DNA from: Vicugna vicugna
Lineage: Eukaryota
NCBI GenBank assembly: GCA_013265495.1
Contig: MU057947.1
Span: 1,449,070 to 1,513,069 of the forward strand
DNA length: 64,000 bases
Reading direction: 5' to 3'
The translations under genes and the position numbers were made by a program. Below the pieces are notes generated by a model. That model was given only the letters and a program-made list of their open reading frames with translations, had not been told where the DNA came from and made no database searches. Positions 88 through 35,361 of this stretch are shown one piece after another; the first letter of the stretch is position 1, and every line of letters begins with the position of its first letter.

Positions 88-1003
88 TCTTTTCTTTCTT
101 TTTTTAAATTGAAGTACAGTCAGTTGACAATGTTGTGTCAATTTCTGGTATACAGCATAAATTTTCAGTCATACATGTGCATGCATGTATTTGTTTTCAT
201 ATTGTTTTTCATTATAGGTTACTATTGGATATTAAATATAGTTCCCTGAGCTATGCAGAAGAAACTTGTTTATTTATTTTATGTATAGTAGTTAATATTT
301 GCAAATCTTGAACTCCCAATTTATTCCTTCCCACCTCCTTTTCTCCCTGGGGTAACCGTAATTTTGTTTACTATGTCTGTGAGTCTGTTTCTGTTTTGTA
401 GAAAAGTTCATTAGTATCTTTTTTTTTTCCAGATTCCATGTATGAGTGACATCCTATGGTATTTTTCTTTCTCTTTCTGGCTTACTTCATTCAGTATGAC
501 AATCTCCAGGTCCATCTATGTTGCTGCAAATGGTATTATTTTATTCTTTTTTATGGCCGAGTAGTATTCCATTGTATAAATATACCAGAACTTCTTTATC
601 TAGTTGTCTGTTAATGGACATTTAGGTTATTTCCTTGCTTGCCTATTGTGTACAGTGCTGCTGTGAACATTGGGGTGCAGGTGTGTTTTCAAATTAGAGT
701 TCCCTCTGGATGTATGCCCAGGAGTGGGACTGCTGGATCATGTGGTAACTCTGTAGTTTTTTGAGGAATCTCCATACTGTCCTCCACATTGGCTGCACCA
801 AACTACATTTTCATCAGCAGTATAGGAGGGCTCCCTTTTCTCCACACCTTCTCCAGCATGTACTGTTTGTGGATGTTTTAATGATGGCCATTCTGGCAGG
901 TGGGAGGTGGTGCCTCACTGTAGTTTTGATCTTCATTTCTCTGGTAACTAGCAATACTGAGCATTTTCCATGTGCCTGTTGGCCGTTTGTATGTCTTCTT
1001 TAG
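88..1003 (-). mobile_element. LINE-1 3' end (5'-truncated; poly(A) tail, 3' UTR and end of ORF2), cetartiodactyl/camelid type
   Basis: Starts with a T-rich tail then ttgaagtacagtcagttgacaatgttgtgtca. Contains typical antisense L1 text (gtccatctatgttgctgcaaatgg, ggacatttaggtt, gctgtgaacattggggtgcagg, gatggccattctg) and is colinear with the copies at 9.35 kb and 58.6 kb. Confidence 0.95.
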
Positions 1004-1179
1004 AATAAGCTTACTTTTCCTTCTTCTCTTTTATTTTTATTTCCCTTTTTAGTCTTTATTATTTCCATTTTGCCAAAATGTGTCTTACTAATATAGTATT
1101 CTTCCACTCTCATCCCTACTCTGTTAGTTTAGTCTTAAATATCCAATTAAGTATATTAAATAATGATTGTATTCTCAAG

Positions 1180-2750
1180 CTTCTTCAGTCATAGCTTGGT
1201 TGGATGGACTTCATCCAACCAAGTAGACTTGAGTAGACTCCTTGAGAAGTGCTCATGAGAACAGCAGTCCTATGATCTTACATGATCAGAGTTGCTATGC
1301 TAGCCTGGACCATAGGCTGCTTTTGGCTGGATGTAATCCTGGGTTCACACATTCTTTCCTCGTATTTATTGAAAAATGTTCCCATTGATGCCTTGAGTTG
1401 TCTGATCCAGGCTAATTTATTTACCTCGTAGGTTATGTTTATATTTTTTTTCCTTGAGGTCCAGAGGGTTTTTTTTTTTTTAAAAGCTTTTAAAGTGTAA
1501 TATCTTTATAAGGCAAAGATCTTAAAGCTGATCATTCTGGCTTAATTTTCTCTGGTCCCTATAGGCTCTGATAAAATGTAGACTTACGTCTTCTTTTATT
1601 TCTGGAAAGCATCCATGAACTATAGGTTTACATATTAGCCACGACCCATTGTTTTGTTTTGGGGTGAACTCCAATTATACATATGTTGGATTTTGTTTTG
1701 TCTGTCATCCATTTCAGCCACTTTTCTTTGAGCTTTTTTATGTCTTTCCTTCCTTTATTTTCATTTGCTTAGTTATTCTGACTTTCTCCTATGACTTTTG
1801 ATAAAGTTCTATTTACATATATTCTTACTCAGGCACTTTATTTACAACTTTGCTTTCATTTCTGATGTGGCAGTATCTTTTTCTTCCATTTTCTCCAGAA
1901 TTCAATAAATTTCCATTTGATTTCTCCTAATTTTATTTGTTTTTTTAAATCTTAATGTCTTCTCTTCTGATACCTTCAACTGCTTGTGTGAGAGTACTTA
2001 ATATACGTTAGAGTGTTGCATTAGTTTTACTCTGCATTTTTTTTTATTGGCAGTGCATTCACCAGCTTAAATGCTTTGATTTAAATTTTCTGTTTATTCC
2101 TGCATTTACTTTGGATAGATGAAGACTGCTTAATGCTATTCATATCGTGATGGTCTGAAGAATATGGTGCATTCTACATCTTAAGAGAAACTTCTGTTGT
2201 ATCAAAATGTAGTTTCTACAGTGGAGTTTTGGGGTGCAGGTGGAAGGGCTGTGTGGCTGTGTTTAACATCTGTTTCATCTCGCAGAATTCCAGTTTTGCT
2301 AACGTGCTTCTTCCTTCCCACCACCCAATATCAACAAGTGTCTTTCCTTCAGTTTACAGCCTCTTCTTCTCTGGAAACAAGGCCTTTCTGAGCCCTACTT
2401 TATGTAACCACCCTACCTGAGGTCAACACATTGATCCAATAAGATCTTTTTTAGAAATTTTGCTTTTAGGGTGGACTTTTATGTTTAGGCCACTTTAGGT
2501 ACATCTTAGGCCTTTTGAATTCCTCTTTCCTTTCTGTATATTTACCCCACACCCTACTGGTTTCCACAAAGACGTGCAGTGCAAGCTTAAGAGGTATCTC
2601 CACCACCCTCTGGGTGTTAATTTTCTGCCGCAGCTAATTTGAAGTTTGTAGTGTTGTTTGACTTTTTGTTGTGCAGAAGGTGTTTTATTTCTTTTTACTT
2701 TTCTGGACACTGTTTTTGAGGCTGTGGGGAGAGATTCAGGTCAGCTGCCC
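1180..2750 (-). mobile_element. Ancient degenerate L1 (L1M-type) ORF1/5' region
   Basis: Very T-rich plus strand with motifs resembling antisense old L1 ORF1 (ttctggaaag, actccaattatacatatgttgga). Boundaries approximate. Confidence 0.55.
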
Positions 2751-3290: not shown

Positions 3291-4099
3291 GAAGAGATGC
3301 TTTCAGAAAAACAAAAGCTCGGAGGATTTACTTCCACGAGACCTATACCCTAAGGTACATTATAAGGAAAGGGGGTTCCTGAGATTCAAGGAGGTCATCT
3401 CAGATAGGGGCCTGGATGTGTGGGGGAGGGAGTGAAGGGCCTCCCTCAAAGGCCTTGGTCCCCTCTGTCTACTGCACACTTCCCTTCGGGGCAGCAGAGG
3501 TGGACCTGGGGTCCCTGCACCGTCCGTCACTAAGGCCAAGTGGACCGAGCTTTTGTGTAATTACATGAGGCTGGTGGGCAGAAGCACCTTGCAAGTGGAC
3601 GCATTTTCAAGTCACTGTAGGAGATTTTAGTTGTCAGTGTAAGAAAACAGTGATACAGGAAGGAGATGCTCTTGGGTTCAACGTGGACACAGTCAGGACG
3701 TGCCGGTGCCTGGCGCTGAGGCACCAGCGGCCTGACCGTCCCGCACGGGCTTCCTCAGGGAGCATCACCTCTGTGCGTCCTCCTGGAATGTCTGCTTGAC
3801 AATAATTCTGACAACTGAGGAGTGAATAAAAATAGAGCTCCCAGGAATGGGAAATCTGTCCTTCGAGGGCTTGTGGTGAGTGCCGATAATAAACCCCTGT
3901 GAGAACTGCAGTCCTGGAACAGGATGTTTCATAAACCGGGACAACAGCAGTCAAGGTAATGACACCAGCGCCACAGAAACGGGAGAGGTGAGAGGTGAGT
4001 GGGTGAAATTCTATGCCTTTTAAATCTCTCCTCCCAGAAAAGTGAGTCAGTCATTACCGAGTCGAATGGAAACTTTATCTAAACCGACTAAAGCCGCAA

Positions 4100-4397
4100 T
4101 ATTTTTCATAATGTTTTCGGTTCTGGGCCTAGAGGTCCGAGATCAGGGTGCCAGCATGGCCGGGGTCTGGTGAGGACCCTCTTCCAGGGTGCGGACGGCT
4201 GGCTTCTCCTGTGTCCTTCCATGGTGGCTGGAGAGGGTGCCAGAGAGCTCTGTGGGTCTCTTATAAGGGCAGGAATCCCACCAGGAGGCTTCACCCTCCT
4301 GACCTAGCACCTTCTAAGGGCTCCCCCAACACCATCACTGGGGGTTAGGATTTCAACCAAAATAGGAATTTGGGGGGATGCGAACATTCAATCCCCA
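4100..4397 (-). mobile_element. MLT1A-like ERVL-MaLR solo LTR fragment
   Basis: gtccgagatcagggtgccagca...tctggtgaggaccctcttcc...tcttataagggcaggaatccc...accatcactgggggttaggatttcaac...gaatttggggggatgcgaacattca matches the MLT1A antisense pattern. Confidence 0.85.
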
Positions 4398-7300
4398 AGT
4401 ACCCACAGCTGTGCACTGGCCTGGCGCCTGGCTCTGGGGGTGGGCAGGCAGTTTGGTTACTGGGAGAGTCACAGTGGTGGCTTGTAATGGGGGTGTCACA
4501 CCGGTACCTCCACTCCGTGACCTGGAGTCCGTCAGACCGTTCTCAGGAAGGGTCCTGAGGGCTACGGGCACCTAGCGCTGCCTGATCCCTGGAGCTACAG
4601 GCTGACAGGTGCTGGGTCTGCGACCAGTGCTGAGGGGCGGGGGGGTGTCAGCCGACTCCACTCCCCGCCGTGGTTCTGGCTGGTGAGCGGGGCTCCCAGA
4701 TGCTGCTCCTCATGTCAGAATGCTGCAACAGAAACACACAGAAAGTGGAGTCAAATCCAGAGGGCTGGGGGAGGAGAAGGGCCAGGGAGCCAGGCCAAGT
4801 GGCCGGCCGGCCCTCTGCACCCTGTGTGTACACGGTTCCCTTCTTCCGGGCTGCCTCTCCTTCATGGGCTCGACCTCCTTTCCAGGCCCAGCCCAGCCAA
4901 TTCCCCAGACCCAGCCCTTGGCTTGGTTCTTGCCTCTTCAACACTTGCTCTGCCCTCTCCCATCTCCAGCACTGAAACCACACTGTTTCATCACACTGTC
5001 TAACATGCCTCCTCCAAGAAGTCTTCCCAGATTGACCCTCTCCCTTTCCCCTCTCTCCCCGCAGAACACGGCCGCGGTGTGCGGCGTTCATGTGCAGTCA
5101 TTCCCGCAGAGCTCTGCCCTGGGCCCTCCTGCTTGTGCTTGCTTTTGTCATGTAGGTGCATTTGCCTGGACTGGGGACTATGAGCTTGGGGGATGCTCAC
5201 ATGACATTTCTTTTCCCCAAATAATGAGGATGCAAATGATGGAGGTGCCGTTTGGGGAAAGCCCCTGTATTAAAGTTGAATGAGTTAACATTTTCCTCAC
5301 CTGCAGACACATTTGAGCTCACAGTCAGCCAGGGGTTGGGGGGCTCTCAGAGGGGCACATGTCTGCGATGCATTACCGGGGCCTCTGGGCAGCCCCAGCC
5401 GTCATCCGTAACACGGAGATCGATGCTACTCCAACCGCTGCTGCTGTAATTGCAGAGAACATCCTGTCAAAGGGCAGAACAAACCCAGCACTTCCTCCTT
5501 TTATTGCAAATGACTGTTTGGGTTTTGAACGCATCCCACTGGCTGGCAGGACTGTGTTTATTTTATAAAGCCAGAAAGAAGGGTTTCTTGACATGCACTA
5601 GTTATCACCGAGGGACGCTCACCACCTGATTCTTCAGTGGCATGAAGGTCCAGGAGGTGCTGCCTGCCTGTCACCACCACTGGCGCTAGGCCCGCAGTGG
5701 TGGGACCCTGGTGCCTCGCCAAGGAGGAAGCTTCCCTTGGTCCTGGATCTGGGATGTGGCCTCCTGAGCAAAGCAGCCAGTTACTCCCAGCAGCGGAGAC
5801 GGGAGCGGCATGTCCTTCCAGGCTCAGGGAGACACACGGGGTCACAGGGGGAACAGCGCCCGTCGCCCTAGGACGCCCAGTGGGGGCCCGACGTTCCATG
5901 GCGGTGCTCTCTGCATGAAGCGCGTGGCTTTATCTGTGGACCTCATCGCTGTCACCCAGAACTGATGGTAGATTAGGACCTCGGTCAGAATGGAATTTGA
6001 GTTTCCCTCATTTCCAGGTGCTGTTATTCTCAAACCCAAGAACCTCAGGCTTTGTGGACCTGAGAAAACAGAGCCTTGGGACAAACATTGTTCCATACAA
6101 ACCCCACTTCCAGTCTCGCAGGCTGTAACCCAGACCCCTGCAGGTGTTCTCAGCGGGGTAACTTGACCCACCAGGTACCAGGGGTCAACACTCTCTACTC
6201 CGATGTTTAGGCCTGTGGGACGTGAGGGACGGCACTGACCTCGTTACCCAGAGCTGAGCTGGCGATGCCGAGCGGCGGGCCGGTGACCCCTGTGCTTGAG
6301 TGAGGGTAGGGGGACAGCAGAATCAAGCCATCGGCCCGGTGATAACGGCCCCAGGAGGCTCTGCTGGTTCTGCCGCCAACAGCGACACCCTGGGTCATGG
6401 AAATGGACAGCGATCAGGCCCAGGCAGGCCTGCTGTCCTTGCTTTTCTCGCTTTCATTTTATAAGGGTTTGGATGAAATGAAATGTACTTACATCTTTAT
6501 TTTTCTCACTGTGAATGGAAATCAGGCAGCAAAACAAAAAGGTTTACACGGAGGAATGAACAGTTGCTACCGAGAGACAAGACGTGGTCACCGCAGTTGC
6601 AGTGACACGAAGGAGGGAGAGGCTTTCCACCAAGCAGGCTGGGGAGGCGTCCGTTCACTTAAGGCCGGAGACTAGGGAGGCTGGGAGCCGAGAACTGCCT
6701 TCTGATTCATCGTAACGAAACAGGCGACGGGAGGCCGGGACCTCTGTCAGGGCCTGTGTGAACGGCCCGGCGTTACCGACGCCGCGGGAGCCAGGGCCGC
6801 CGGCACGCGTCGGGAGGGGAGAGCAGAGAGCTCAAGACACAGAATGAGGTGCCCAAGGAGGGGAGAGGTTGGAAGTGTAAAGGCCCCCAGATAGGCTCTG
6901 GGGACCACGTGGGAAAGGGTGTTTGCTTCAGGCCGTCGGGTCCTGGGAAGGTGGCAGGTAAGCAGGGACCCGGGCTAGGAAAGGGCTCAGGCTGTGGATT
7001 CAGGATGGAGGCCGGTCTCTGGCACTGGGAGCCCAGTTGGGGGCCACTCCAGGAGAACCAGGCAAGGCCAGGGCTGGGCCTGGTCAGGGAGGGACCCGTG
7101 GTCAGGGGGCTGGCCATCAGTTGGGTTCTCCTAGTAGACCCGCCCCACACCGGGGGCAGGTAGCGTGGAGCCCCCAGGCCTCCCGCGGGCTGGAAGGAGG
7201 CTGGGAGCAGGAGCCGCTGGGCTCTTTGCCCACGGAGGGCGGGCCTTCCTCAGCCCCACTCCCCCATCAGCTTCTAGAAGGGCAGGCACTGTGGGGTGGT

Positions 7301-7700: not shown

Positions 7701-9344
7701 GTGGTTAGAGTGGGGCTAAGGGCTTGTCCCCACACCATCCGCCACGGGAGGCCGGCCTCCGAGCTGAGGGGGCTCGGGCCGAGGGCGTGGAGGTTTCATT
7801 TGTATCTTTCATCCCAACTTTCCGTGAAGTAAGGACCCTCTGCGCCACGTGAGCGCTGTCCCAGCTTCTTGCTGTTTTAATTTTGAAGAGGACAGCAGGG
7901 AGAGTGCAGCAATAAGCAGGGGCCCCTTCAAGGAGCCCTTCGGTCACACGAGAGCCAAACCTCTCCTTCCCTCCTGAACGTGAGAGCCGGGCAGTGACGT
8001 CCCCTCTGCCCCTCAGCTTTTCCCACTACAGAAAAATGTGGATCTCGTAGGCACCCCCCCGCTGGAGTGCTTAGACGTCACAGTGAATAATTCATGCTGA
8101 CCCCTAATGCGGAGTGGGTGTCCAACACACTGTTGTTACCGTTCCCAACGGCACCCTGGCCGCCAAAACAGGTTTCCAGGAAGACACGTCCGTGTCTCCA
8201 AAGCAGTGTGGGAACAGCGGGTGCGTAGCCACAGGCTCTGGGCCGGGATCGTCCTCAATGACCACGTGCCCTGACTGATGGCCTGCCGAGCGGTCGCTCC
8301 AGACAGGCCTTCAGATTCCTCGGTTTGGTGGCAGGAACCCACACGTGGCAATAAGCACAGGTCGATTCCTCCAGCCCTGGGGCTTGAGGCTCCAGCAAGA
8401 TGAGTGATCAAAATGCTGCTTCCGAAGTAGCCAGCGGGCGACCTTTCTGCTCTGCTGCGTGCCTGAAGTGTCAGCATGAGCAAAATCAAGGCGGGTAATC
8501 GCGAGGCTCGTGGTCAGGGATGCAAATCCAGGGGGAGCGGACACTTGAGAGGAGCTCCGAGCGTCCTCGGTCGGCTGCACCTGGGCACGCCGCGGTCGCC
8601 GCAGTGCGTGAGCCTCCCATGGAGGACTCCGCCGTGTGAACCGCGCTCTGACCCGGGTCGGGGGTATGAGGGTCCCCTCCGCTCAGGGCAGCCCCTTCCG
8701 CACCGAGGCTCACCGTGAGAGGCTGCGGGGAGACGCCAGCGCGGGGGCCGCACAGAGCAGAACGGAGACGTTCACCCGCGGTCCTGGGACGGAGGGCGTG
8801 ACAGCCCCCCTGAACGTGGCCGCAAACCTCTGTTTGATGACAGTGATCGTAACACGGCATCGCTCTGTTATTCCAAACGCTGTGTTTCACTACTGTGAGC
8901 CGCCTCAATAAACACACAGCCACACTGGGAGCTGGGAAAGAAATGCCGTGCAAAGCCACAGCTTTCCCTCGGTTCAGATCCCGGGTCCTCACCCAGATTT
9001 TCGGTTTCACTGCTCAGAATAAGGATTTAGGAAAGAACTTTTGAACGTGCCACTTTCCTTGTGCTGCTGGGCAGGCAGATAGGACCTTTGTAGGTGTCTG
9101 CAAGTGAGGACCAGGGGTGTGGCTCCCACGGCCTGCGCTGGTCGCAGTCACGGCATCACCAGCCGCTGTGAAGCTAGGACAGCGCGGGGCGCCCGGGCCT
9201 GATGGAGCTGCACTGAGGCACGTCCACGTCCACGTCCAGGGCAAGGAAGGGGACAACGCACACCTTCTAGGGGTATTTCTTTCATTCATTGAACAAATCA
9301 TCAATATGATTTTATACAATGAAATGGGAGATGTCTGTAGACTT

Positions 9345-10310
9345 TTTTTAAGACATTATTTCTTTTTTATTGACATACAGTTTACAGCGTTGTGTTAATT
9401 TCTGCTGTACAGTGTAGTGATTCAGTTATACAAATACATACATTCCTTTCCATATTCTTTTTCATTATAGGTTATTACAAGGCATTGAACATAGGTTCCT
9501 GTGCGCTACAGCAGGACCTTGTTATGTATCTAGCTTATACGTAGTAGTGTGTATCTGCAAATCCCAAACTCCCAGCCTATCCCTCCCCTCCCCCTTCCCC
9601 CCCCCGGCAACCACGAGTCTGTTCTCTATGTCTGTGAGTCTGCTTCCATTTTGTAACTAAGTTCATTTATGTCGCTTTTTTTTTTTGAGGTATAGTCAGT
9701 TTGCAGTGTTGTGTCATTTGGGTCCTTTTTTCTAAGATGCCACATATGAGTGATGTCATATGACGTTTTTCTATGTCTTGCTTCACTTAGAATGACGATT
9801 ACCAGGTCCCTCCATGTTGCTGCAAATGGCATTGTTTTATTCTTTTTTGTGGCTGAGTCATATTCCATTGTATATATACACAGCATCCCCCTTATCCAGT
9901 CATCTGCTGATGGACATTTAGGCTGTTTCCATGTCTTGGCTATTGTAAATAGTGCTGCAGTGAACATTGGGGTGCAGGTGTCTTTTTGAAGTAGGGTTCC
10001 TTCTGGATATATGCCCAGGAGCGGGATTCCTGGGTCATATGGTAAGTCTGTTCCTAGTCTTTTGAGGAATCTCCACACTGTTTTCCACAGTGGCTGCACC
10101 AACCTGCATTCCCACCAGCAGTGTAGGAGGGATCCCCTTTCTCCACAGCCTCTCCAGCATTTGTCATTTGTGGATTTTTGAATGATGGCCATTCTGACTG
10201 GTGTGAGGTGGTACCTTATTGTAGTTTTGATTTGCATTTCTCTGATGATTAGTGATGTTGAGCATTTTTTCATGTGCCTCTTGGCCACTTGCATGTCTTC
10301 ATTGGAGAAC
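9345..10310 (-). mobile_element. LINE-1 3' end with open ORF2 C-terminal segment (5'-truncated, non-autonomous)
   Basis: ORF 9626-10294 translates to [97 protein letters not shown], the canonical L1 ORF2p C-terminus. T-rich tail at the left end. Confidence 0.97.
9676..9716 (-). mobile_element. Ultra-short L1 tail nested inside the L1 above
   Basis: T-run + gaggtatagtcagtttgcagtgttgtgtca matches the L1 terminus at 110-140. Flanked by the imperfect direct repeats tcatttatgtcgcttttt / tcatttgggtccttttt. Confidence 0.75.
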
Positions 10311-11069
10311 TGGTTTTTAAGAGGATTGTGCAGGGCACCACGCCCCTCTGTAAGGCTCCCCCCCAGAAATGTTGGTTAGTCTCTCCTCACCTCTCCACGC
10401 CTCTGGCAGCCCCTGCCGTGGCCACTGTTCCCAGGTGGTCCAGCAGGCTCCCATCCACGCCACTCTTCTGGGGGCAGAGGCCCCTGCTGGCCCTTTAGGA
10501 CTGAATTCCCCAGCAGTGGGGTGGTGGGGCGGCGGTGGCGCACAGCTCGGGGGTCCTTGACATGAGGAGCCACGGCCTTACCAGCGTGCTCGGTCCACAG
10601 TCAGAACGTCTGCGTCAGTGCTGTGCGCTCGGCCGCCCTGGTGCACTGTTTGCCTTTATCTTAAGTAATGGCTTGGACTTTATTTGTAATCGTAAAAGTC
10701 TGAAGCAACAGAAACATCCAGCAAGTGGCAGTTAAGAACATGCTCATGCAGCCGCAGGATGAAGCAAGATGCACCCAGACGAGATGGCGCCGGTGGAGGC
10801 TGGAGGGAACGGACGCGCCCTCCAGATGTCGTGCTGGGTGAACGGGGTGTCCCGGCACAGCCGCTGACGTGAAAGCAGCTCTGTGTGTAACGAAGCACTG
10901 ATGCTGAACAAACTGCAGGAGCGGAACTGCATGTGGGGAAAATGAGAGGCTTATGCCGGAGGGCGGACCGTTTTGGTTGTTTGATGAAACGTTGAGGGGG
11001 CGTGGGTTGCTGTGCACTTTTTAGTTACGGTTAGATGATTTTCTGAAGAATGAGTTATTAATTGAAAAA

Positions 11070-11985
11070 TTAAAAACAAACAAAACCAAAAAATATGATT
11101 AAAAAATGGGCAAAGCATCTAAGTAGACGTTTTACCAAAGACACAGAGATGGCCAACGGGTGCCTGAAAAAGTGTTCAGCGTCACTAATGCTCAGGGAAA
11201 TGCAGATCAAGCCACAGGAGGGGCCGCCTTGCGCCTGCTCGAGTGGCTGCTGTGGCAAGTGCTGGCGAGGGCGCAGAAGGCGGGGAACCGTCGTGCTGCT
11301 GCTGGTGGGAGTGTCGGTTGGTGCAGCCACTCTGGGAAGCAGTACAGAGGTCCCTCAAAAACCTAAGAGTAGAACGGCATATGGTCCAGCAACCCCGCTG
11401 CTGGGTATGTATCTGGAGAAAGTGAGGACTCTGACTGGGAGCGACGCATAGCCCGCTGTGGTCGCGGCAGCAGTGGCCGCAGCAGCCGCGCCGTGGAAGC
11501 AGCCTCGGTGCTCCTCGGTGCGCCGCTGGGTAAGGAGGACGTGGTGCGTGCGCACCGTGGAGCACCACTGAGCCACCAGACACCAGGAAAGCCTGGCGTT
11601 TATGACAACACGAACGGGCCTTGAGGGCATGGCACTAAGTGAAATGAGCCACAGAGAAAGACAAATACCACTTCTACGTGGAATCTGAAAAAGCAAAGGC
11701 AGAAAACTCAACCTTGAAGAGGCAGAGACCAGGCTGGTGGTTGCTGGAGGCAGGGCGTGGAGGGCAGGGAAATGGGTGAAGGGAGTGAAAAGGCACAAAC
11801 TTTCAGCTGTAAACGAGATAAGCCGCTGGGTGTAACGTACAGCGTGACGACTACAGTCAACAATATTGTGCTGCGTATTTGAAAGCTATTAAGATAGTGA
11901 ATCTTTAAAGTTCTCACCATGAGAAAAAAAGTGTGTGGAGAGACCAGTGGTAACTAGACTTATGGTGACCATTCCCCACTGTATA
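11070..11985 (+). mobile_element. Older L1 (L1MA/L1MB-like) 3' end, strongly GC-shifted in its middle
   Basis: Translations IKKWAKHLSRRFTK..EMAN..LKKCSASL..REMQIK and [12 protein letters not shown] are L1 ORF2p. The 3' UTR has aaggcacaaactttcagctgtaa...gtatttgaaagct...taaagttctcacca. Confidence 0.93.
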
Positions 11986-12394
11986 CAAGGAGCAAATGAT
12001 CACTCTGGGCACCTGGAAAGGGCACAACCAATGCCATTTATGCCTCAGGTTTTGAAGAAAGAAAAAAAAATGGTGTTCTGCAGCCAGACGGTGACAAAAA
12101 GCGCTGTATGCCAAGGGTGCCCATGGTCACAGGAGGAATCCCGCCTAACAAACCACAAATCAGTGTCCTTTTATAAAATTTCAAGCTTTAGTAAAACAAT
12201 CCAACAGAAGGCTTGATTCATATCACTACTAAACACACCTAAACTCACTTATGAATACATCTCAGCTTTTTAAGAAAATCGGCATCTAAGGGTGAGGGTG
12301 GAGCTTGCTGTCACCCAGAATGTTCTGTTCCCTCGTCTAAACCCGCTGGTTTCCCCAAGTCATGTTCACGCAGTTAGACACATTCAGAATCTTT

Positions 12395-12715
12395 CTCTTT
12401 ATTTTTTTATTTTTCTTTTGTTTTTTTAATTCTTATTTTTGTATTGAAGTGTAGTCGATCTGCAATGTTAGTTTCAGGTGTACAGCAAAGCGATTCAGTT
12501 ACACGCATAATTATATACATTTTTTTTCAGATACTTTTCCGTTACAGCTCATTACAAGAAGCTGGACACAGTTCCCAGTGCCCTACAGCAGATCCTTGTT
12601 GTTAATCTGCTTTATACATAGTTGTGTGTATCTGTTAATCCCAAGTTCCTAATCTGTTCCCCCCACTTCTTTACCTGCCCCCCCCCGTAACTACAGTTTG
12701 TTTTCTACGTCTGTT
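12395..12715 (-). mobile_element. L1 3' tail fragment
   Basis: T-rich tail, then ttgaagtgtagtcgat...tttcaggtgtacagcaaagcgattcagtt...cagttcccagtgc...gtatctgttaatccca. Confidence 0.9.
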
Positions 12716-13199
12716 ATTTAAGTACAAAGTTTTTTTGTTTTGTTTTCTGGGATTTTTTGCCCATCTTCTGTCCCCCCCCCAAAACCTCTTGTCCAAACCT
12801 CCTTTCAGCTGCCAAAGGAGACACTAAAAGCTAAAAGTTTCTCTCTGATCACTTCCTGTTTTAAAGTCTCTGTGATGGGGTCCTAGGTAGTCAGGCAGTG
12901 GTGGGCTGGGGCTCTCTGCCCATCCACCCTCATTTCTGTTTCTGTTCCCTTTGCTGGATCCTTTTAAATTACTTTCCTGAATTAATGGCAATACCCTCCT
13001 GCAGCTGCTAATGAGAAACCTCTGGCCATCTTTGGTCTTTCTCCCTCTTTTAGTTTTCACATTTGAGCAACAGCCTTTTCTGGCTGATTTCTCCCCTCCT
13101 TGCCCTCCCTGCACCTCAGCTGCACTGTCTCCGGCCTCTCCGCTCCCCGCCTGCTGATGTCACGCCTAAGCCGGCCCACTTGTTCATTGCAAAGACCTC

Positions 13200-13760
13200 T
13201 GATCGGTCTCCCGTCTCCAGCCTCTCCCGGCTCCAATCCATTTTCCGTGCTTCACTCAGTATGTCTTAAAGAAGTATCGGTCTACTCCCCAATTTGCAAG
13301 CTGGCAATTTCTCTCTGTCGTGGGATAAAGATCCGTCTTCTCCAGGAGACGCGGAGGCCCTTTGGCACTGACTCCAGCTTGCTTTTCCGGCCTCACCTCC
13401 TGCTGCCAAGACACACCTGGCTCCCTTTCTGTAGGCACAAGAGTCTCCTGACTCTTCCACGGGGCTGTATCCCTCTGTCCTTCAACACACACACACACAC
13501 ACACGTCCATGGCTCCCCAGTCTGGAATCTTCCACACCTTCCTCGGGCCTGGGAACTGTTGACTCAGCCGAGGGGGCACCTCTTCCAGGAAGCCTTCCCA
13601 GAAACCCCCCAAGGACTTGGTTGGCTTGCCCTCGACTGCACATCTTTCCCACCAGGCTCTGGGCTCCCCTGGGACGGCCTCTCTTTCCTTGTCTTCCTCC
13701 CATTTCCGTGGCACATGGTACTCAGCATTTGGTAACGATTCCCTAAATGAAATATGAACA
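13200..13760 (+). mobile_element. L2 LINE 3' fragment (contains (CA)n at ~13485-13504)
   Basis: ctccaatccatttt..., cacctcttccaggaagccttccc and gtggcacatggtactcagcattt...aaatgaa are typical L2 3' motifs. Confidence 0.55.
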
Positions 13761-13927
13761 GTCTCCATTCGGAGAAAACAGGATTCAATACCAGGAACAC
13801 CTGTTTCTCAACTGACTCTTCACCTTCTTCCCATCTAGAAAGACCCAGGAAGCCAATGTTAGTGAGGGAGTCACTCAAACACCCGTCACTGGGGAGATGA
13901 GACTTACAAGTTCGGGCTGAAAGAAAA

Positions 13928-14157
13928 TTAAGTTGGAGTTTGGGATTAACAGATACAAACTACTATGCACAGAACAGATAAACAGATTTCTACTGAATAG
14001 CACAGGGAACTATATTAAATGGCTTGTAATAACCTGCAATGAAAAAATTATATATATGTGTGTATATATATATATGAATCATTATGCTGTACACCAGAAA
14101 CTAACACAACATTGTAAGTCAACTATACTGCAATTTTTAAAAATGGGAAAAAATAAA
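13928..14157 (+). mobile_element. L1 3' tail fragment
   Basis: ggagtttgggattaacagatacaaactact...tagcacagggaactatatt...gctgtacaccagaaactaacacaacattgtaagtcaactatact followed by an A-rich tail. Confidence 0.92.
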
Positions 14158-16469
14158 TGCTGGTCATATTGTCACAAAAAATTAAATTGGAAGTAAGTAG
14201 CCATACAGGACTTAGCCACTGCTCAAGAATATAAACCGTGAGGTGACTACAAACATATTGGTATTTCCTAAAATAAAAAGCTCTCCCCACGTAAGAGGCG
14301 CGGCCTGCATCAGCGGTTAAGCGGGGCCAGCACAGCGCGACTGCAGGACTTGGCGTTAGTGCTGGCGTTATGGGGGGGGACACGCAGCTGAGGTAACTAC
14401 TTCATGCCATCGTGACATTTCTGAGAATCACGTCTTATCTGAGAAGCAAACTGTGATACAGAAAGGGACGTAGGCCATCCTTGCATTTCCCGAGTTACTT
14501 ACGTGGTCAGGCACTCAGCAGAGAGCAGGCTGTGTTCAGCGTGGGCTGTGCGTGAGGTGTTGGTTTAGAGCCGCAGGCGAGGAGAAAGACAAAGACAAAA
14601 CACACGCATCTCTGTATTTAAGGAGATTGTGTGGAATTTGCAGTAGGTTTTCAGTGCAGGGAAACACACATTTCCGAGTATTTGGATACTGCGTTCATCT
14701 GTGCAAGGATGGTTTCTGCTTACCACCTGGTACTATTCCAGAAGCCACTGTCCATTTCAGTCCCTGTTTTTATTGGCCCTGGAAAGTAAAATTGGTGGAC
14801 ATGCCACAAAAAATGAATGCTGGAGAGGCAGTCAGGACGTTTCCACCCCCAGGGACTTTTGGCAGATCATGGTGCTCCTGGGAACTAAGTGGATAAGCCA
14901 CTCCCTGAAGCGCTGCCTGGTCTGTGTCCACGTCCCAGGAAGGACACCGGGCTGGCGGCCAGGAGCTAAACTGAGTTCACGTGCAGAAATGCACACCTCC
15001 TGGCCCAGTTTCTGGAGCCAAACCAGCTCACAGGCGGGACAGCCTCGTGTAAAGGAAAGGCCGGGTGCACCTGGGAGGGGTCCTGAAGCTCGGCTGCAGC
15101 GCTGCGGGAAGCCGTCCGCGAAGCCTTTCCTGGGTGTGCACCAGGGAGACTGGTTCTTGGGGGAAGATGATGCCCAGTTATTTCAGGAGCTTGTGGGCGA
15201 TGTATAAGAATTTGTACCTTTCGTAGAGTCTCCCCCAACCAAAATAAAAAGGAGAGAGAAAAAAAAAAAAAACAACCCCGTGACCTCACACCCATAGCGT
15301 GGCTGATGGCAGGTGGTAAGGGGGGTTTTGACCCAATTTTGAATCACTGTGGATTTGTACACCCACCCTGAGGCCACGTTCTCAAGTTCTAGAAGCTGTA
15401 ACTGGGACAGACATGTGACAATTCCAGAGTCCCCCACCAGCCCCCGCCCCACAAAGTGGGGGCTGTTGTGACTCACAGATTGAACAGTGGTTTTCACCAG
15501 GATGCAAGGCAGGTGGATCTTGGAGAATAACCCTGGAATTGGTGCCTCTAATCACGCTGCGGTTCCCGTGTGTTCTCTCGACTGGAGTAGGTCAGCACAG
15601 CCCCCGCAGCGTGGTTTTAGCTGCTGATGGCGTGTTATTTTTCCTCTGTACCAGTCTGCAGTTCTATTCCACTGGAAGGTTTGCGTTCGCCTGACAGGGA
15701 CAACCTTTAGACACACCTCTAGAGTCCCGTCTCCGCTACGTTAGCCATCTCTCCTGTTCTCAGCCGGAAAATCGCCCCTGGCCACCTGGGTACCTGAGGT
15801 TCCCGGGACGACCACGTGGGTCTCCCGCGCTGATACCGTCCTGCTAATGGGACCCGGTGAGCAGGACGAGGTACCTACCGTTGGTGCCTCTGAAAGAGAA
15901 CGACAGCCCGAGGGTGAGGGGAGGTCCCAGGGGACGTGGAGGTCATCACATCGTGACGTTTCTGGGGGGCCGGCGCCTGAGGGACGGCGCCGAGGTGAGA
16001 GACAAGTCGCCGGCCTTCCGCTCAGGAGAAAGCACGGTGCTTGGGAGGCTGCTCTGAACTTCAGAGGTGACACTGCCACACGGCGACGGGAGGGTGCCGT
16101 GCTCACTGCACACACGCACACACACACACACACACGTCCGCTTCCTGAACGCCTGTGGGGTCGCCTCGGGGGGAGGCGCTGCATGGGAAGGACCCCCGGC
16201 TACAGTGAGGTGGATGTACTGGAAACAGGAATGTGTGGGGCGCCCGTAACTACAGGGGTGCTCGTGAGAGCCTGTGCCCCACACACACCGCGGGTCAGAG
16301 CCTGGCCTCTCAGGCCGCGATCACCCAGCTCGGCTCACGTCAGAATCAGCCGGAGGCTCGTTCAGACACGGGTTGCTGGGTCCCGCCCCCGGGTTTCTCA
16401 TGCAGAGGATGGCCCTGGACCCGCTTGGGCCGTCAATCGGCCGACCAACTTGCTCTGAGCTGTGGTTGG

Positions 16470-16670
16470 AGTGATGCCAGGAAGGAGCGAGGTGGCTTCT
16501 GCAACATAGAGAAAGCAAGGAAGCAGGCTCTTTCTGGAATCTGGCACAGGAACACAGCCTTGCCTACGGCTTGACTTTAGACTCCTGACCTCCAGAACAA
16601 GAGAAAATGTGTGCTTTTTTAAGCCACAAAGTTGGTGGCAATTTGTCCGAGCAGCCCCAGGAAACACACC
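16470..16670 (+). mobile_element. MLT1C/D-like MaLR LTR 3' fragment
   Basis: aaagcaaggaagcagg...ggaacacagccttgcc...ttgactttagactcctgacctccagaac...ttttaagccacaaagttggtggcaatttgt...gcagccccaggaaac. Confidence 0.8.
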
Positions 16671-17113
16671 GGTGGAGACTGACTGTCTCCCAGGTGCCTC
16701 CTGGGACTCCAGGTCCCCTCCTGTGGGGACCAGAATACAAGCGTGGTCTTTGGTGTAAAGCTGGGCGACAGCTAGCCGGGAGAAGCCGCCCGCCGTCTGG
16801 GCTGCTGTGCGGGGGCGCGATGGGCGTGGACGGGTCAGCGGGGGCCCAGGGCTGGGCTGTGCTGGTTGCTGAGTCCTGAGCTCTCAGCTTCAGACGCACT
16901 TCTGAGCTGAGCTCGGCTGATCGGGGGCTAGGCCTCTGCAGGTCACGTTTCTACTTCACCCGCTGCTCCCGGGAGTCCTGCAAAGGGGTCCCCAAATGAG
17001 CTGCGAGGTGGAAGGAGAGAGACGGGCTCCCTTCCATTGTTTTCCTGCTGCTGCGGGCTTGTCAGGCCACGGCCTTCCTTGCCGGTAGCCACAGCTGGCT
17101 CTACTTTGCTTTT

Positions 17114-17233
17114 GTTTATTTATTTATTTGTTATTTAATTTTTTTTCTTTTTTTTATTGGAGGTACGGGGGATTGGACCTGGGACCTTGTGCATGCTAAG
17201 CACGCACTCTGTCACTGAGCCACACCCTCCCCC
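17114..17233 (-). mobile_element. Vic-1-type camelid tRNA-Ala-derived SINE
   Basis: Reverse complement reads gggggagggtgtggctcagtgacagagtgcgtgcttagcatgcacaaggtcccaggtccaatcccccgtacctcc + A-rich tail (A box, AGC anticodon loop, B box). TSD actttgctttt (17103-17113) / agtttgctttt (17234-17244). Confidence 0.9.
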
Positions 17234-18282
17234 AGTTTGCTTTTATCTCTTGCTCACAGAGACCCACCCCCGGCTGGCTAGCACATCCTCCTTAGCTGCC
17301 TGAGTCTCAGAAACTCGGGGTCCCTTCCCTGAGCTCCTGGGGTGTCAGCACCTGCTGAGCGGTGCCCCTCCTCTGAGGGCCAGCTCTGTGGACATCGTCC
17401 CCCCGCCCCGTTTCTAAATTTGCATAATCCCAGCGACTTCTGTTTATTCCCCCCACCCCACCCCAACTCAGCTGCCTCTCTAACTTGCTGCCTCTGTAAA
17501 TCCTCTGCTTTCGTTTTGCTTTTTCGCTTTTCTAATATTTAGTGTAAAAGTATTAATTAATTTGTCTCTACTAAATAAAAGTGGTCCCTGTTTTATGACT
17601 GGGTCCTGACCGAGGCGCTCTGCTCTCTGCTGAGTCCCTGTAATGATTCTGAGGGACACTGGCAGAGAGGACACTGGGAGGCTGGGTGGGAACACGGTCT
17701 TCTGTCCCGCAGGCCACGGCATCTGACAGCCGTCGACAGCTGACACTAACACCCGTTCTCCAAACATCAGTGGTCGCTCACTGCACGCGAGGGTGCGCGT
17801 CCCCACTCACCGGGTGCTGCTGGGGGGGCACCGACCAGCTGCCCACACGGTGGTTCCGGTCACCCTGACGGTCGTCTGGGACACGCACACACACCGCGGG
17901 TGCTCTGTTAGAGGCGTGAGGAGCCACCCTCTCGAGTTGGGAGAAGAAGTGGAAACCGGTTTTTGTTCAGTCATCACCACAGAGCAGATTTGGAAGGGGA
18001 CAACCACTTAGTTTTGTTTCTGAGCTCGGCTGCATATTTAAAACGTGCTGGTGTCTAACAAAGACTTCACAGCATCCTTTCCCCCCACGGTGGTTGGGTT
18101 TTCATGTTCAGTAACCCCGGGGACAGCCAGACATTGGAAACAAGGGAGAATAAGGCTTCAACTCTCACCATCCAATGAAGTGAAACAGTTTCTGTTTGGT
18201 CTCAGGCTGCTGAGACATCAGCGATATCCTGCCTACTGGATGCACAGATGGCTGATCGCGCTCTGGGAAGACTTGAGTGTAG

Positions 18283-18742: not shown

Positions 18743-21700
18743 TCTTTGAGAGTATATCCCTCAGAACAAGAGCACACAAGGTCTGGTGACCCAGGCTGTT
18801 CGCAGCGCGCAGGGCCCTCACAGGTGCTCAAGAAGTCTGCAGACTGCAGGGAGAGGAAGGTCGCGTGAGTTTGCAAGGGGTGAACTTGAGAAATCCCACG
18901 TCACATCAAAAACACAAAAAAACCCAAAAAACGACCCACTATGCCTTTGGCCTCCCTCAGTTGGAAGCTATGGCGAAGAATTCGTCCAGTATGTGTTTAC
19001 TCTCAACTCACGGCTACGTTCTTTGTACCGATTGAAGCAGAGGCTAAAAGGTAACACTCTGCAGATGCATTTCTTTAGAAATCGTTGTTTCTGCTTCTGT
19101 GGCCATGATGTGCGGCCCGGCATACATTAGAAGTGTGTTTCATTCTCTTTCTCATTGGATGTCGCACCGCAATAATCCTTGCTGTGCCCTGGGTGCAAAC
19201 AGCCCGATTTATCTGGAGTAGGAGCCTGGGGACGGGCTTCATCACTGGGTCCATCAATGGCAGTTCCGTATCCTCTGAAAATAGGGCAGCAAGGTTTAAT
19301 GTGCCACCAGTTTCCCTGGATAAACACACATCTACTGCAGATAAGCTTCTCTTTCCAGACGGGTCATATTTTGCCTTGATCTAAACAGTCTCTGTTTATG
19401 AATCTCCTTTATTCATTACAGTAAGCCTACAGTGGGACTCCCTTGCAGGGACAGGGGTGCCGAAGCAAAGCCTTAAGTGGAAGGAAGACAGAGATGTCCC
19501 CTGGGACACAAGCCACGTGTTGCCGGGACCCTCTGAAGGAAAGGGAACATTGTACAGAATCAGCAACACCATCAAAAGCATATGAATTAGGAAGTCCAGG
19601 AATGTCTACTTCTAAGTTAGGAAAAAGCCCGAAGTGGTCCTGGACTGAATTCCAATACGCACTTTGGATGTACCAAGTCCAAGAGCCAACATGCCTGCGG
19701 GGTGGACATTAAACTTGCCGTCTGAGTTCAGGGATGCCAAGCAGCTTTCGTTTTTGCATGTCCAGAGACAGCACGCTCCCCTCAGCCCCCTTGCAGCACT
19801 CGCACGTGTGTCCTAGGCTGGGGGTAGGAGCAGAGGGGTTGGCAGCTGACAATACTTACTTACTCATTCATTTTTACAGGTTTTTTTAATGAGCACACTG
19901 TCTTGGTATGCTGTCTTTATGTTTTCCTTGACTGTATTTGAAGCTGTTGTCTTGGGTACGGAAAACACTGAGGCTGATGAATTGCATTTCACATCTAAGA
20001 CAATCTGAGTTTCTGGCACAGTGGACATTTATATAATGTTCTTTGCCACGGGCAAAACTTTTTTTCTGATGGATTTGAAGATTCTTTTCTTCTCCCTGTG
20101 AAGAAGGAAATCTTGATACATCTCAATTTATCCCCAACTGAAATGTTTGATTTCATGATTATTCAAGAAACCTAATGTCCTATGACTTCAGTAGATCGAG
20201 TGTTTTGCTGCTGTCTTCCCACTTTGTCTTGTCCCTTTGGGTCCCAGTGAGCGAATTTGCCATTTTGACGGGAGCCCTGGCTCTCTGATTGAGCAGGGCT
20301 GGGCGGATGACACCCAGCACAGAAGGGGCCCCTGGTTTTGCATCCGGTCTAATTCTGCCCTCTTTCGGCTTGGGTCTTTGCTCAAACCATGCCGCCTGCT
20401 CCCGGATTCCTTAGAGAACACATTCTTAACTGTCACTGACAAGGAGAGAAATGAAATGTTGGGTTTTAGCCCTTCCCTCCCGAACAACCACAACAATACA
20501 GGCCACGAGTCCGCACGCTCCCAGCCAGCGCAGGGGCTCTAGGGCGCGGGGTCGGATGCTCTGGCCTGCAGCGCAGCGTCCTTGCCGGCGGGGGGACACG
20601 CAGGCACGATGCTCTGGTTCCATCGTGAGAGCAGTGACTCCCCGCAGACCCTCCTGCGGGTCTGTGCTCAGCGAGCGGCACCTGTAGGCGGCTTTCCTGG
20701 GACTCAGAGGCTGTGTCAGCGGAGAGAGACCTCGCAGCTGAAAACCCCTTACCGCCGGCTGGGAGGGAACCTCAGCAGACGCAGAGGGACGACTTGCAGG
20801 GCTGCTCTCCTGCTCAGAGGAGGGGAAGGGGCGTGTTCCGTGGGGGGCCGCCAGCCCGTGGCCGCGAGACAGCTCCGGCTCCCGGGGGCCCGCGGGCATC
20901 CCTGGAGGTCCCACCTTACGTCTTCGTTCCGGGGGTGCTGAGGCCAGTCACCTTCTTCCCATTAGGGCTTCTTTCTTTCCTTGATCTCAGCCGTGAGATG
21001 GGAACTTTGGCGGGAAAGAGAGCAAAGAAACGCTGGGCGGCATCCTTAGGATCAAGGCACCAGCTGTGGGAAAGTGTCCAGTGTTTCAGGCCCGGATGGT
21101 GAAGCGCTGTGTTTTTAGTGACCAGCCAGGGCTAGCCAGGCCCGCCTTCCAGCGCTCTCAGCTGGACCCATCAAGGACCACAGCCGGAGTCCGGGGCAGG
21201 GCAGGGCCGGGCAGCAGCCCCTGAAAGGGCGCAGTGCGTCAACCCCCCACCGTGCCCCCGCCACCCAGGCTGCTTTGCCCACCGCGTGCTCTGCGCGCAC
21301 AGCCATCCCACTTCCCATCTGTGTCAGGGACGGCGCATCCACCTCTGCTGGGTTTTACAGTTTTCCTGGTTTGTTTAAAAAATTACACTTAATCACTATT
21401 CAGCGTCTCACTGATGCACTTCGTGGCGCAGATAAATACGCGCATCTTCTTCCTCCCGGATGACTCCTTTCCACATGTCTCTCTGCTGTCGACGTGAGTA
21501 CGTATTTATCCCCTCGAGCCTGTATTTCTTCCTCGGAGTGTAAAAAAAGTGATTTAATTTTATTGTAAAATCTAGTGGGAGGGATAAATAAGCCTCAGAT
21601 TTCACTCATCCAACTTGGAGATGATCATTTTTGACAGATATCTCTGCTCACAAATTGGTATTTTTCTGTGTTTTCCTATAATCAAATAGTAAGCAATGTT

Positions 21701-31214: not shown

Positions 31215-31674
31215 GGCTGGACTCAAGTCGGAAGGTTGTGTCTGCGGGTTCAAGCAGGGCAAAGGGGGACCCCAGGCCGGGAGACAGCACCTCAGAGGGC
31301 TCTGAGGAGCCGCTCCGAAGAGGCAGGGGGTCTCAGTGTTATGTGTGATTTTGGTGAAGGGGGGTCCGTGCCATCAGGCGCACATTTTGGCAGAAGGTTG
31401 CTGCTAGTCACAAGGAGCAGGCGTCACCGTTAGTAACTAGTGTTTTTCTAAATAGGAGGAGACGCAAGAATTTGGGCCAATAAAATCTCCTGAAAATATT
31501 GACCTACGTGGAGGTTTGTTCTGCCAGTTTCCCAGCGCGTGCAGCGGTCTGTGATCAGTGATTCCTGATCTCCGCCCTGAGCCCCTCTTCAGGCGTGTTG
31601 AAAGTCAGCGGCTGCAGCGGCTCCTGGTCTAATCCTTGAAGAGGCAGATGGCAAGTGCCAAGTTTCACGCAGCA
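31215..31674 (-). mobile_element. ERV1-type solo LTR, copy 1 (same family as 33791-34297)
   Basis: Colinear with copy 2: ggagacagca..gctctgagga..gaggcagggg..tagtgtttttcta..taggaggaga..gcaaga..ataaaatct..ctcctgaaaa..gtcagcggctgcagcggc..gtgcca..agca. Left boundary is eroded. Confidence 0.8.
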
Positions 31675-34390: not shown

Positions 34391-34559
34391 GAGGACCGCC
34401 GACCACCCGCAGCAGCTGAGTGAGCAGGCCAGGTGGAAACGCAGGTCCTCAGTCCCAGCCTAGGTCAGGATCCGAGTCTCTGGGACAGGGTGTGTAAACC
34501 CGCATTTTCACAGGTTTCCAGGTGGGAAATCCAGATGTACGCTCACGTGGGGACCATCC

Positions 34560-35150: not shown

Positions 35151-35199
35151 TATTTACTCACTTTTTCTTTAAATTTTTTTTTGAGCTGCATTATTGATT

Positions 35200-35361
35200 C
35201 TGAACATTTTTTAAATTATTTTATTCTGTTTGTTTGTTTTTTGGGGGGGTAGTCAGTTTTGTTTGTTTGTTTCTCTATTTTTAAATGAAGGCACTGGGGA
35301 TTGAACCCAGGACCTCCTGCATGCTAAGCATGTGCTCTACCCCTGAGCTGTACCCTCCCCC
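35200..35361 (-). mobile_element. Vic-1-type camelid tRNA-Ala-derived SINE with extended tail
   Basis: Reverse complement gggggagggtacagctcaggggtagagcacatgcttagcatgcaggaggtcctgggttcaatccccagtgccttca + A-rich tail. B box GGTTCAATCC is intact. Confidence 0.92.

What the first reader, a model, noticed from the sequence alone, without database searches (positions are those of the whole stretch)
11200..11620. An L1 remnant rewritten from AT to GC: fossil GC-biased gene conversion tract that created a CpG island out of a LINE
Seen: 11467-11576 aligns without gaps to the reverse complement of the younger L1 at 9849-9958 (110 nt). By my hand count about 36 differences are A/T there versus G/C here, and only about 4 go the other way (e.g. 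tatatatacaatgga -> cgtgcgcaccgtgga; ctatttacaatagccaagaca -> gtggccgcagcagccgcgccg). The flanks of the same element (11070-11190, 11860-11930) remain AT-rich, so the shift is a localised ~400-bp peak. Known: this part of L1 ORF2 is AT-rich across mammalian subfamilies, old repeats normally lose CpG, and clustered weak-to-strong substitution is the signature of gBGC at recombination hotspots. Inference: a long-lived or very intense hotspot acted here and produced a de novo CpG-dense patch that might now be regulatory. Caveat: the comparator is a different L1 subfamily, not the true ancestor.
Basis: partly seen in the sequence, partly recalled or inferred. Interest (0 to 1): 0.7.

Follow-up and report, generated by a model that had tools for sequence, protein, structure and literature searches.

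The report
Old L1 fragment rewritten GC-rich
In a dead LINE-1 fragment, over 40% of the scorable A/T bases have been replaced by G/C since it inserted, which is the known footprint of recombination-driven GC-biased gene conversion, and it sits in a region with many similar CpG-rich patches, so it is a clear example of a known process.

Summary
Against eight other L1 copies (four outside this genome), 77 of 176 ancestral A/T sites in 11200-11620 became G/C, 16 of 135 G/C sites became A/T, and 1 of 176 changed A<>T. The homologous segment is 41-45% GC in all eight comparators and 64% here. The bias includes transversions and non-CpG sites, is not significantly strand-skewed, and affects all three codon positions of a frameshifted frame. 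[quoted passage not shown]

Three claims weaken. The 3' flank is shifted too (48:18). The window is CpG-rich throughout (o/e 0.53; 37 of 152 windows pass island thresholds), and 2 of 11 other L1 tails reach a similar bias. Rough simulations disfavour a long-dead hotspot on fully methylated DNA and, weakly, an unmethylated island. Nothing supports a regulatory role.

Islands made by gBGC are published. This scan has noted the same pattern on other DNA, in this genome and another (unchecked notes).

The parts
11050..12071 (+). Old 5'-truncated L1: end of ORF2, 3' UTR and short A-rich tail. The UTR differs from that of the younger L1 family in the window; I recall it as L1MA9-like (no call names it). 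5' edge approximate.
   Evidence: ORF2p match E=1e-15; UTR aligns to L001 over 253 columns at 11810-12067; A-run at about 12056-12071
11190..11620 (+). Core of the A/T-to-G/C shift, within ORF2. W>S per site is 0.42-0.57 in 11190-11309 and 11430-11609, with a dip to 0.20-0.26 in 11310-11429 (the dip is not statistically established).
11467..11576 (+).
11810..12067 (+). 3' UTR flank: AT-rich but also GC-shifted (42% vs 30% GC; 48:18)
9356..10312 (-).
10441..11040 (.). Neighbouring CpG-rich block outside this L1 that passes the same island thresholds; origin not determined

Best explanation
A dead L1 fragment inserted as ordinary ~42% GC sequence and was then exposed, for a long time or repeatedly and into fairly recent times, to meiotic recombination. 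Heteroduplex repair favoured G/C over A/T alleles (gBGC), so A/T-to-G/C mutations fixed several times faster than neutral and new CpGs were made faster than deamination removed them. The patch is one of the stronger local peaks in a region where the same process has acted unevenly. It is most likely a passive by-product (a 'BGC island'), probably at least partly methylated, with no function shown. SHOWN: L1 origin, direction and size of the bias relative to paralogues, independence from codon position and CpG context, regional CpG richness. INFERRED: gBGC as cause, time-averaged strength B about 2-5, recency, methylation state, camelid host, position near a chromosome end.
For: W>S 77/176 vs S>W 16/135, p=5e-10, GC*=0.79, against 0.38-0.62 for 8 of 8 comparators treated the same way. 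W>S transversions 20 vs A<>T 1, p=2e-5; 53 of 77 changes lie outside CpG; A>G 40/110 vs T>C 17/66, p=0.18. GC-conservative changes 9 of 311 columns, within the comparators' own range of 1-9, so total mutation rate is not obviously raised. All codon positions are affected and the frame carries indels of -2, -16, +1 and -1. Simulations with sustained B 4-5 or a late burst reproduce GC 0.64 and about 31 CpG even with 13-fold CpG decay, while B=0 gives GC 0.39-0.42. Clustered W>S tracts, their subtelomeric clustering and gBGC-made islands are published (PMC3744432; PMC4350167; PMC4121359 on Cohen 2011).
Against: No orthologous outgroup, allele frequencies, recombination map or methylation data were obtained; polarity rests on paralogues of other subfamilies. 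A fixation bias cannot be told from a local, strand-symmetric mutation bias by substitutions alone. The implied time-averaged B (about 2 from GC*=0.79 and lambda=2.08; 4-5 from simulation) is far above the human mean of 0.38-0.52, where hotspots last about 1 Myr or less (10.1101/010173), so an unshown extra premise is needed (stable or reused hotspots, or larger populations). No simulated history fitted every statistic closely: the two best reached the observed o/e in 16 and 25 of 100 runs. The simulations use a recalled human-like mutation spectrum.
Confidence: 0.85

Rival explanations
1. The patch is a germline-unmethylated CpG island that attracts PRDM9-independent recombination, as in dogs. 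gBGC then feeds the island that attracts it, giving a stable hotspot born inside an L1. This is a sub-case of the gBGC explanation with a stronger claim.
For: It would supply the long duration that B about 2-5 requires. 39 of 52 mammals show recombination enrichment at such sites, many with intact PRDM9 (PMC11161765 section 8). The patch passes sequence thresholds for an island.
Against: W>S transitions are rarer where they would create a CpG (18/76) than elsewhere (39/100), p=0.035, post hoc. In all 9 simulated histories without CpG decay, at most 6 of 100 runs were that depleted. The homologous segment holds only 1-6 CpG in the comparators, so there was no island to seed it.
Confidence: 0.2
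2. A local mutation bias (for example error-prone repair favouring G/C), not a fixation bias, drove the change.
For: Substitution counts against paralogues cannot separate mutation from fixation. C<>G changes (8/135) outnumber A<>T changes (1/176). An aberrant-repair mechanism for CpG islands has been proposed (PMC4041421, search listing only).
Against: All four W>S types are raised on both strands while A<>T is nearly absent. Mammalian mutation is AT-biased (lambda 2.08). A low A<>T count is expected under strong gBGC because such sites convert onward (0.005-0.017 per site).
Confidence: 0.07
3. The element was already GC-rich when it inserted (a GC-rich L1 subfamily), or was hyper-edited as RNA by ADAR before reverse transcription.
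For: No same-subfamily copy of the ORF2 segment was found; L001 covers only the UTR. A>G is the commonest change, 40 of 77.
Against: 8 of 8 comparators are 41-45% GC. An active master gene would not carry the shift about equally at all three codon positions. The same-type UTR in L001 is 30% GC. ADAR gives only A>G on the sense strand and cannot explain 17 T>C and 20 transversions.
Confidence: 0.03
4. Selection built or keeps a GC/CpG-rich regulatory or coding element out of the L1.
For: The patch meets island thresholds. Five RNA-type runs hold 5-7% of the words of 10320-18270, position unknown (unlaid, so not evidence for the patch).
Against: 44% of scorable A/T sites changed, spread evenly and regardless of context, which is not how binding sites are gained. 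The frame is broken. 0 of 148 ORFs of >=110 aa in the window match Pfam. Many equal patches lie nearby.
Confidence: 0.05

Closest known systems
gBGC tracts predicted by phastBias in human and chimpanzee (Capra et al. 2013, PMC3744432; abstract and passages seen)
   Same: Short clusters of W>S substitutions; tracts occur in clusters, especially near chromosome ends.
   Different: Those are lineage-specific and polarised with orthologues over a few million years. Here the count is cumulative over the element's life and polarised with paralogues; chromosome position is unknown.
'BGC' class of CpG islands (Cohen, Kenigsberg and Tanay 2011; not read, seen as described in passages of PMC4121359, and PMC5333175)
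   Same: CpG-rich sequence maintained by biased conversion without needing hypomethylation; matches the weak sign of continuing CpG decay here.
   Different: Defined in primates from substitution and deamination rates on a tree; here the starting sequence is an AT-rich L1 and methylation is unmeasured.
New CpG islands generated by gBGC in the dog genome (Berglund et al., PMC4350167; abstract and passages seen)
   Same: gBGC generates many new computationally detected islands, mostly away from genes.
   Different: Dogs lack PRDM9 and their hotspots sit in unmethylated islands. PRDM9 status and methylation are unknown here, and the CpG-context test leans towards methylation.
PRDM9-independent hotspots with GC* peaks in placental mammals (PMC11161765; passages and section 8 seen, supplements searched)
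   Same: Local peaks of equilibrium GC in species with an intact PRDM9.
   Different: Those are orthologues of conserved promoter-like sites. This is a repeat-derived site with no pre-existing island. No camelid term was found in the text or in 4 supplementary files; species names inside figures could not be seen.
Subtelomeric, gene-poor CpG-island clusters in dog, cat, horse and cattle (PMC5333175; passages seen)
   Same: A long stretch dense in islands and sparse in genes, like this window (o/e 0.53; no Pfam hit in 148 ORFs).
   Different: That paper links the clusters to tandem expansion; here the islands are not tandem arrays and the telomere distance is not known.

Membership tests
LINE-1 remnant | Homology to ORF2p | tested here: met
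   E=1e-15 to human ORF2p 1084-1255
LINE-1 remnant | L1-type 3' UTR ending in an A-rich tail | tested here: met
   253 aligned columns with L001 ending in an A-run in both
LINE-1 remnant | Subfamily assignment (L1MA9-like) and target-site duplication | not testable with these tools
   No repeat library is held; the subfamily name is recalled; target-site duplication was not looked for
gBGC tract | W>S rate per site exceeds S>W rate | tested here: met
   77/176 vs 16/135, p=5e-10
gBGC tract | Bias covers transversions and non-CpG sites; GC-conservative changes not raised | tested here: met
   20 W>S transversions vs 1 A<>T; 53 of 77 outside CpG; 9 conservative changes in 311 columns
gBGC tract | Strand symmetry | tested here: inconclusive
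   Both strands affected; A>G 40/110 vs T>C 17/66, p=0.18, low power
gBGC tract | Indifferent to function (all codon positions) | tested here: met
   33/67, 22/63, 22/46
gBGC tract | Sharp local peak above the background | tested here: inconclusive
   Core exceeds UTR, p=2e-4, but bins within ORF2 are not heterogeneous, p=0.11; 2 of 11 other L1 tails reach GC* 0.75
gBGC tract | Branch-polarised with orthologues; derived-allele-frequency skew | not tested
   No orthologous or population alleles were obtained for the patch
gBGC tract | Overlap with a present or past recombination hotspot | not testable with these tools
   No recombination map or DSB data available
CpG island | Sequence thresholds (200 bp, GC>0.5, o/e>0.6; 500 bp, GC>=0.55, o/e>=0.65; thresholds recalled) | tested here: met
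   Passing windows cover 11076-11890 and 11051-11900; they also cover 54% and 34.5% of the whole window
CpG island | Unmethylated in the germline | tested here: inconclusive
   Indirect only: CpG-creating transitions under-represented, p=0.035; <=6 of 100 no-decay simulations match; leans against
CpG island | Promoter or enhancer activity | not testable with these tools
   No expression or chromatin data for the patch; no Pfam-recognised gene among 148 long ORFs, short exons not excluded

The most novel reading that the evidence does not exclude
The host lineage (probably camelids) has a dog-like landscape of long-lived recombination hotspots. Unlike the conserved promoter sites known so far, such hotspots can arise in CpG-free repeat DNA and then stabilise themselves, because the CpG-rich patch made by gBGC recruits further recombination. 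This L1 would be one such self-made hotspot, with a time-averaged B of 2-5, roughly 4 to 13 times the human mean. The idea is prompted by the strength of this tract and by the scan's unchecked notes of similar peaks in this genome (22 notes fit the look-up, 8 shown). This locus alone cannot show it, and the CpG-context test leans against an unmethylated state.
Probability: 0.15. Interest if true: 0.65.

Novelty: new member of a known kind. Interest (0 to 1): 0.22.

Why it matters
For the locus alone, little: it is a clean example, because the AT-rich starting sequence is recoverable from L1 paralogues, so the amount of conversion can be read directly. It is also a caution that sequence-defined CpG islands in such regions need not be regulatory. 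The wider value would come from a genome-wide count. If repeats in this lineage often show time-averaged B of several units, L1 copies become dated neutral reporters for asking whether hotspots in camelids are stable and whether gBGC can seed new unmethylated islands. My searches found no paper on camelid hotspots, PRDM9 status or gBGC (open-access library only).

Tried and rejected
No whole genome is held for the window, so no genome-wide subfamily copies or chromosome position. No reads were laid, so polymorphism, expression and base-level confirmation of the patch remain open; the five RNA-type runs with 5-7% of words are no evidence. L1 relatives: 1 locus from metagenome contigs, 6 confirmed of 32 candidate stretches from genome contigs, 0 of 10 from viral contigs, none in plasmids or phages. 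L006 and L007 were left out of the counts because they are short (263 and 242 bases); L002-L005 were used. Pfam: 0 of 148 long ORFs and 0 of 13 read-through frames (the known ORF2 C-terminal frame also scored nothing, so this scan is insensitive here). Rfam: only a tRNA-like SINE head. Three 600-codon frames at 52900-54700 found nothing in the PDB; a shorter one matched ORF2p weakly, E=0.04-0.09. Alignments at 1580-2368, 19852-20134 and 51404-51809 were about 60% identical in A-rich DNA and were not trusted as homologous; the first leaned S>W, not W>S. The paired repeat at 31231-31661 / ~33820-34245 is symmetric, 44:44, and cannot be polarised. ADAR editing, a GC-rich master element and coding exaptation were rejected. 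A tandem-repeat origin was rejected: no array at the locus. Two papers opened for camelid PRDM9 status gave nothing (PMC12100477, PMC7265531; passages). No earlier scan note lies near this place.

Full report
Observation. 11467-11576 aligns without gaps to the reverse complement of 9849-9958, with 65 of 110 positions identical, 36 differences A/T there and G/C here, and 4 the other way. The stretch 11200-11620 is 63.7% GC with 31 CpG and o/e 0.74. It is the end of L1 ORF2: the + frame at 11131-11640, stops read as X, matches human ORF2p 1084-1255 at E=1e-15. A 3' UTR and an A-rich tail follow to about 12070. I recall this UTR as L1MA9-like; no call names it.

Host and setting. Two short elements at 17131-17233 and 35259-35361 share a tRNA-Ala-like head and a simple tail. 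A simple SINE, vic-1, is described from camels (PMC3531059, passages), so a camelid is likely; I could not compare with the vic-1 sequence, and a camelid TE survey reports nearly all SINEs as MIRs (PMC8605555, passages). Earlier scan notes also call this genome camelid (unchecked). No genome is held. The window is 54% GC with CpG o/e 0.53, has no Pfam match in 148 ORFs of 110 aa or more, and resembles the gene-poor island clusters described near chromosome ends in dog, cat, horse and cattle (PMC5333175, passages). A subtelomeric position is inference.

Is the comparator to blame? I used eight homologous segments: four younger copies in the window, and four mammalian L1 fragments found as contigs in bacterial assemblies (L002-L005, two groups at 96% and 90% internal identity). 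All eight are 41-45% GC with 1-6 CpG. Columns were scored only where at least 75% of at least three comparators from two groups agreed, which left 311 of 421 positions. In the target, 77 of 176 A/T columns are now G/C, 16 of 135 G/C columns are A/T, 1 is A<>T and 8 are C<>G (p=5e-10; GC*=0.79). Scored the same way, the eight comparators give GC* 0.38-0.62, none significant in this interval. Seven single-comparator counts all agree, and eight control pairings are not significantly asymmetric. The remaining gap is that none of the eight belongs to the target's own subfamily.

What kind of bias. It includes 20 transversions against 1 A<>T change (p=2e-5), and 53 of 77 new G/C bases are not in a CpG. 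Both strands are affected: A>G 40/110, T>C 17/66, p=0.18. That excludes ADAR editing as the main cause. Rates at codon positions 1, 2 and 3 are 33/67, 22/63 and 22/46, and the frame carries indels of -2, -16, +1 and -1, so the change happened in dead DNA and was not inherited from an active element. GC-conservative changes, 9 in 311, lie within the comparators' range, so the excess is directional and not a general rise in mutation. This is the pattern expected of gBGC.

How local. The 3' UTR at 11810-12067 is 42% GC against 30% in L001, a copy with the same UTR type, with 48 W>S to 18 S>W over 253 columns. The core is more shifted than the UTR (93/203 vs 48/178, p=2e-4) and than the ORF2 edges (77/176 vs 15/63, p=0.006, boundaries chosen after seeing the data), but a permutation test on 60-bp bins within ORF2 gives p=0.11. 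Eleven 3' UTR fragments of the younger family in the window range from GC* 0.24 to 0.75 and are heterogeneous (p=4e-5); some of that spread may be subfamily differences. Two reach 0.75: 37953-38116 (32/100 vs 4/38, p=0.01) and 38841-38996 (15/92 vs 2/36, p=0.15). Two have GC* below 0.3. Small ORF2 remnants at 34285-34389 and 39763-40150 also lean W>S. So the bias is patchy and recurrent, and the target has the highest GC* of the L1 pieces I could score.

How special as an island. Of 152 non-overlapping 421-bp windows, 20 are at least as GC-rich, 5 have at least 31 CpG, 11 have o/e of 0.74 or more, and 37 pass GC>0.5 with o/e>0.6. Sliding windows passing a 500-bp rule form 24 blocks covering 34.5% of the window, one of them directly upstream at 10441-11040 (union coverage overstates island length; thresholds recalled). 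The patch is in the upper tail but not alone.

Strength and timing. From GC*=0.79 and a mutational bias of 2.08 (10.1101/010173, section 9), B is about 2 by hand calculation, a low estimate because subfamily differences inflate S>W. Simulations from comparator segments with a recalled human-like spectrum and divergence 0.17-0.25 need sustained B of 4-5 or an equivalent burst. The human mean is 0.38-0.52, about 2% of the genome exceeds 5, and hotspots are under 0.7-1.3 Myr old (same paper, section 13). In 27 scenarios of 100 runs each, with 13-fold CpG decay, histories that ended early or mid-life reached o/e 0.74 in 0 of 100 runs, which argues against a long-dead hotspot on methylated DNA. Without CpG decay, o/e is easy to reach, but the observed shortage of CpG-creating transitions (18/76 vs 39/100, p=0.035, post hoc) was matched in at most 6 of 100 runs; sustained or late gBGC with decay also matched it in only 1-6 of 100. 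The best joint fits were repeated bursts with 5-fold decay (16 and 35 of 100) and steady B=6 ending in the last tenth with 13-fold decay (25 and 21 of 100). These are rough and only suggest long or repeated gBGC until fairly recently, on DNA with some methylation.

Mechanism and rivals. Best: passive gBGC at a long-used or repeatedly used recombination site (0.85). A self-stabilising unmethylated hotspot is a stronger sub-case (0.2). Local mutation bias (0.07), selection for a regulatory element (0.05) and a GC-rich or edited ancestor (0.03) are less likely.

Comparison with what is known. Clustered W>S tracts, enriched near chromosome ends, are described (PMC3744432, abstract and passages). 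Islands kept by biased conversion are a recognised class (Cohen 2011 as described in PMC4121359, passages). gBGC has generated many new islands away from genes in dogs (PMC4350167, abstract and passages), and PRDM9-independent GC* peaks occur in 39 of 52 mammals (PMC11161765, section 8). Searches found no paper on camelid gBGC, hotspots or PRDM9 and none devoted to islands made from L1 by gBGC; the library is open-access only, figure text could not be seen, and bioRxiv supplements were closed. The scan itself has noted L1-to-island conversions at least twice elsewhere in this genome and once in another, and 22 notes in this genome fit a gBGC look-up (8 shown). These are unchecked and were used only as leads.

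Verdict. A real, statistically strong and clean example of a known process, in a region where it is common. New member of a known kind; interest 0.22. The lineage-wide reading (self-made stable hotspots in camelids) has probability about 0.15 and would merit about 0.65.

Noticed in passing
window 52400-54560 (+): A-rich stretch that looks like a second, older L1 (ORF1/ORF2 5' part). Weak match to ORF2p 275-354 at about 54284-54511 (E=0.04-0.09). 52600-53599 is 57-67% GC with 70 CpG in 1 kb, next to 38-47% GC at 53600-54399: possibly a longer GC-rewritten L1 than the finding. No DNA comparator.
   Followed up: partly
window 37953-38116 (-): Short L1 3' tail with 32 of 100 A/T sites changed to G/C and 4 of 38 the other way, p=0.01; a second strong peak.
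   Followed up: yes
window 9626-10375 (-): The younger L1's ORF2 end is stop-free for 249 codons and matches ORF2p 1076-1267, although it is only about 73-81% identical to other copies; it is mildly GC-shifted itself (46:11).
   Followed up: partly
window 35286-35357 (-) and 17131-17233: ARAGORN and Rfam call a tRNA-Ala at 35286-35357, but with its simple tail and second copy it is most likely a tRNA-derived SINE.
   Followed up: partly
window 31231-31661 and about 33820-34245: Two direct copies of a 430-bp repeat, about 75% alike, LTR-like by my recall; differences are symmetric (44:44) and both are 55% GC with 17-18 CpG.
   Followed up: partly
L002-L007: Six short contigs in bacterial reference assemblies hold mammalian L1 ORF2 DNA, evidently contamination.
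   Followed up: no
window 1000-2500: AT-rich block (GC 0.32-0.38), strongly T-skewed like a minus-strand old L1, with no GC shift; the adjacent L1 at 92-1004 also has low GC* (0.24-0.42). The left end of the window seems to have escaped the bias.
   Followed up: partly
window 8400-8900, 15600-16400, 25200-25800, 34400-35200: Other CpG-dense patches with o/e about 0.6-0.9, some stronger than the finding; origin not examined.
   Followed up: no
window 10320-18270: Five RNA-type runs, two labelled reproductive-system metagenome, hold 5-7% of the sampled words; which part is unknown.
   Followed up: no
window 4090-4400 and 16440-16680: Degraded stretches that I recall as MaLR (MLT1-type) LTRs; seen by eye, not tested.
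   Followed up: no
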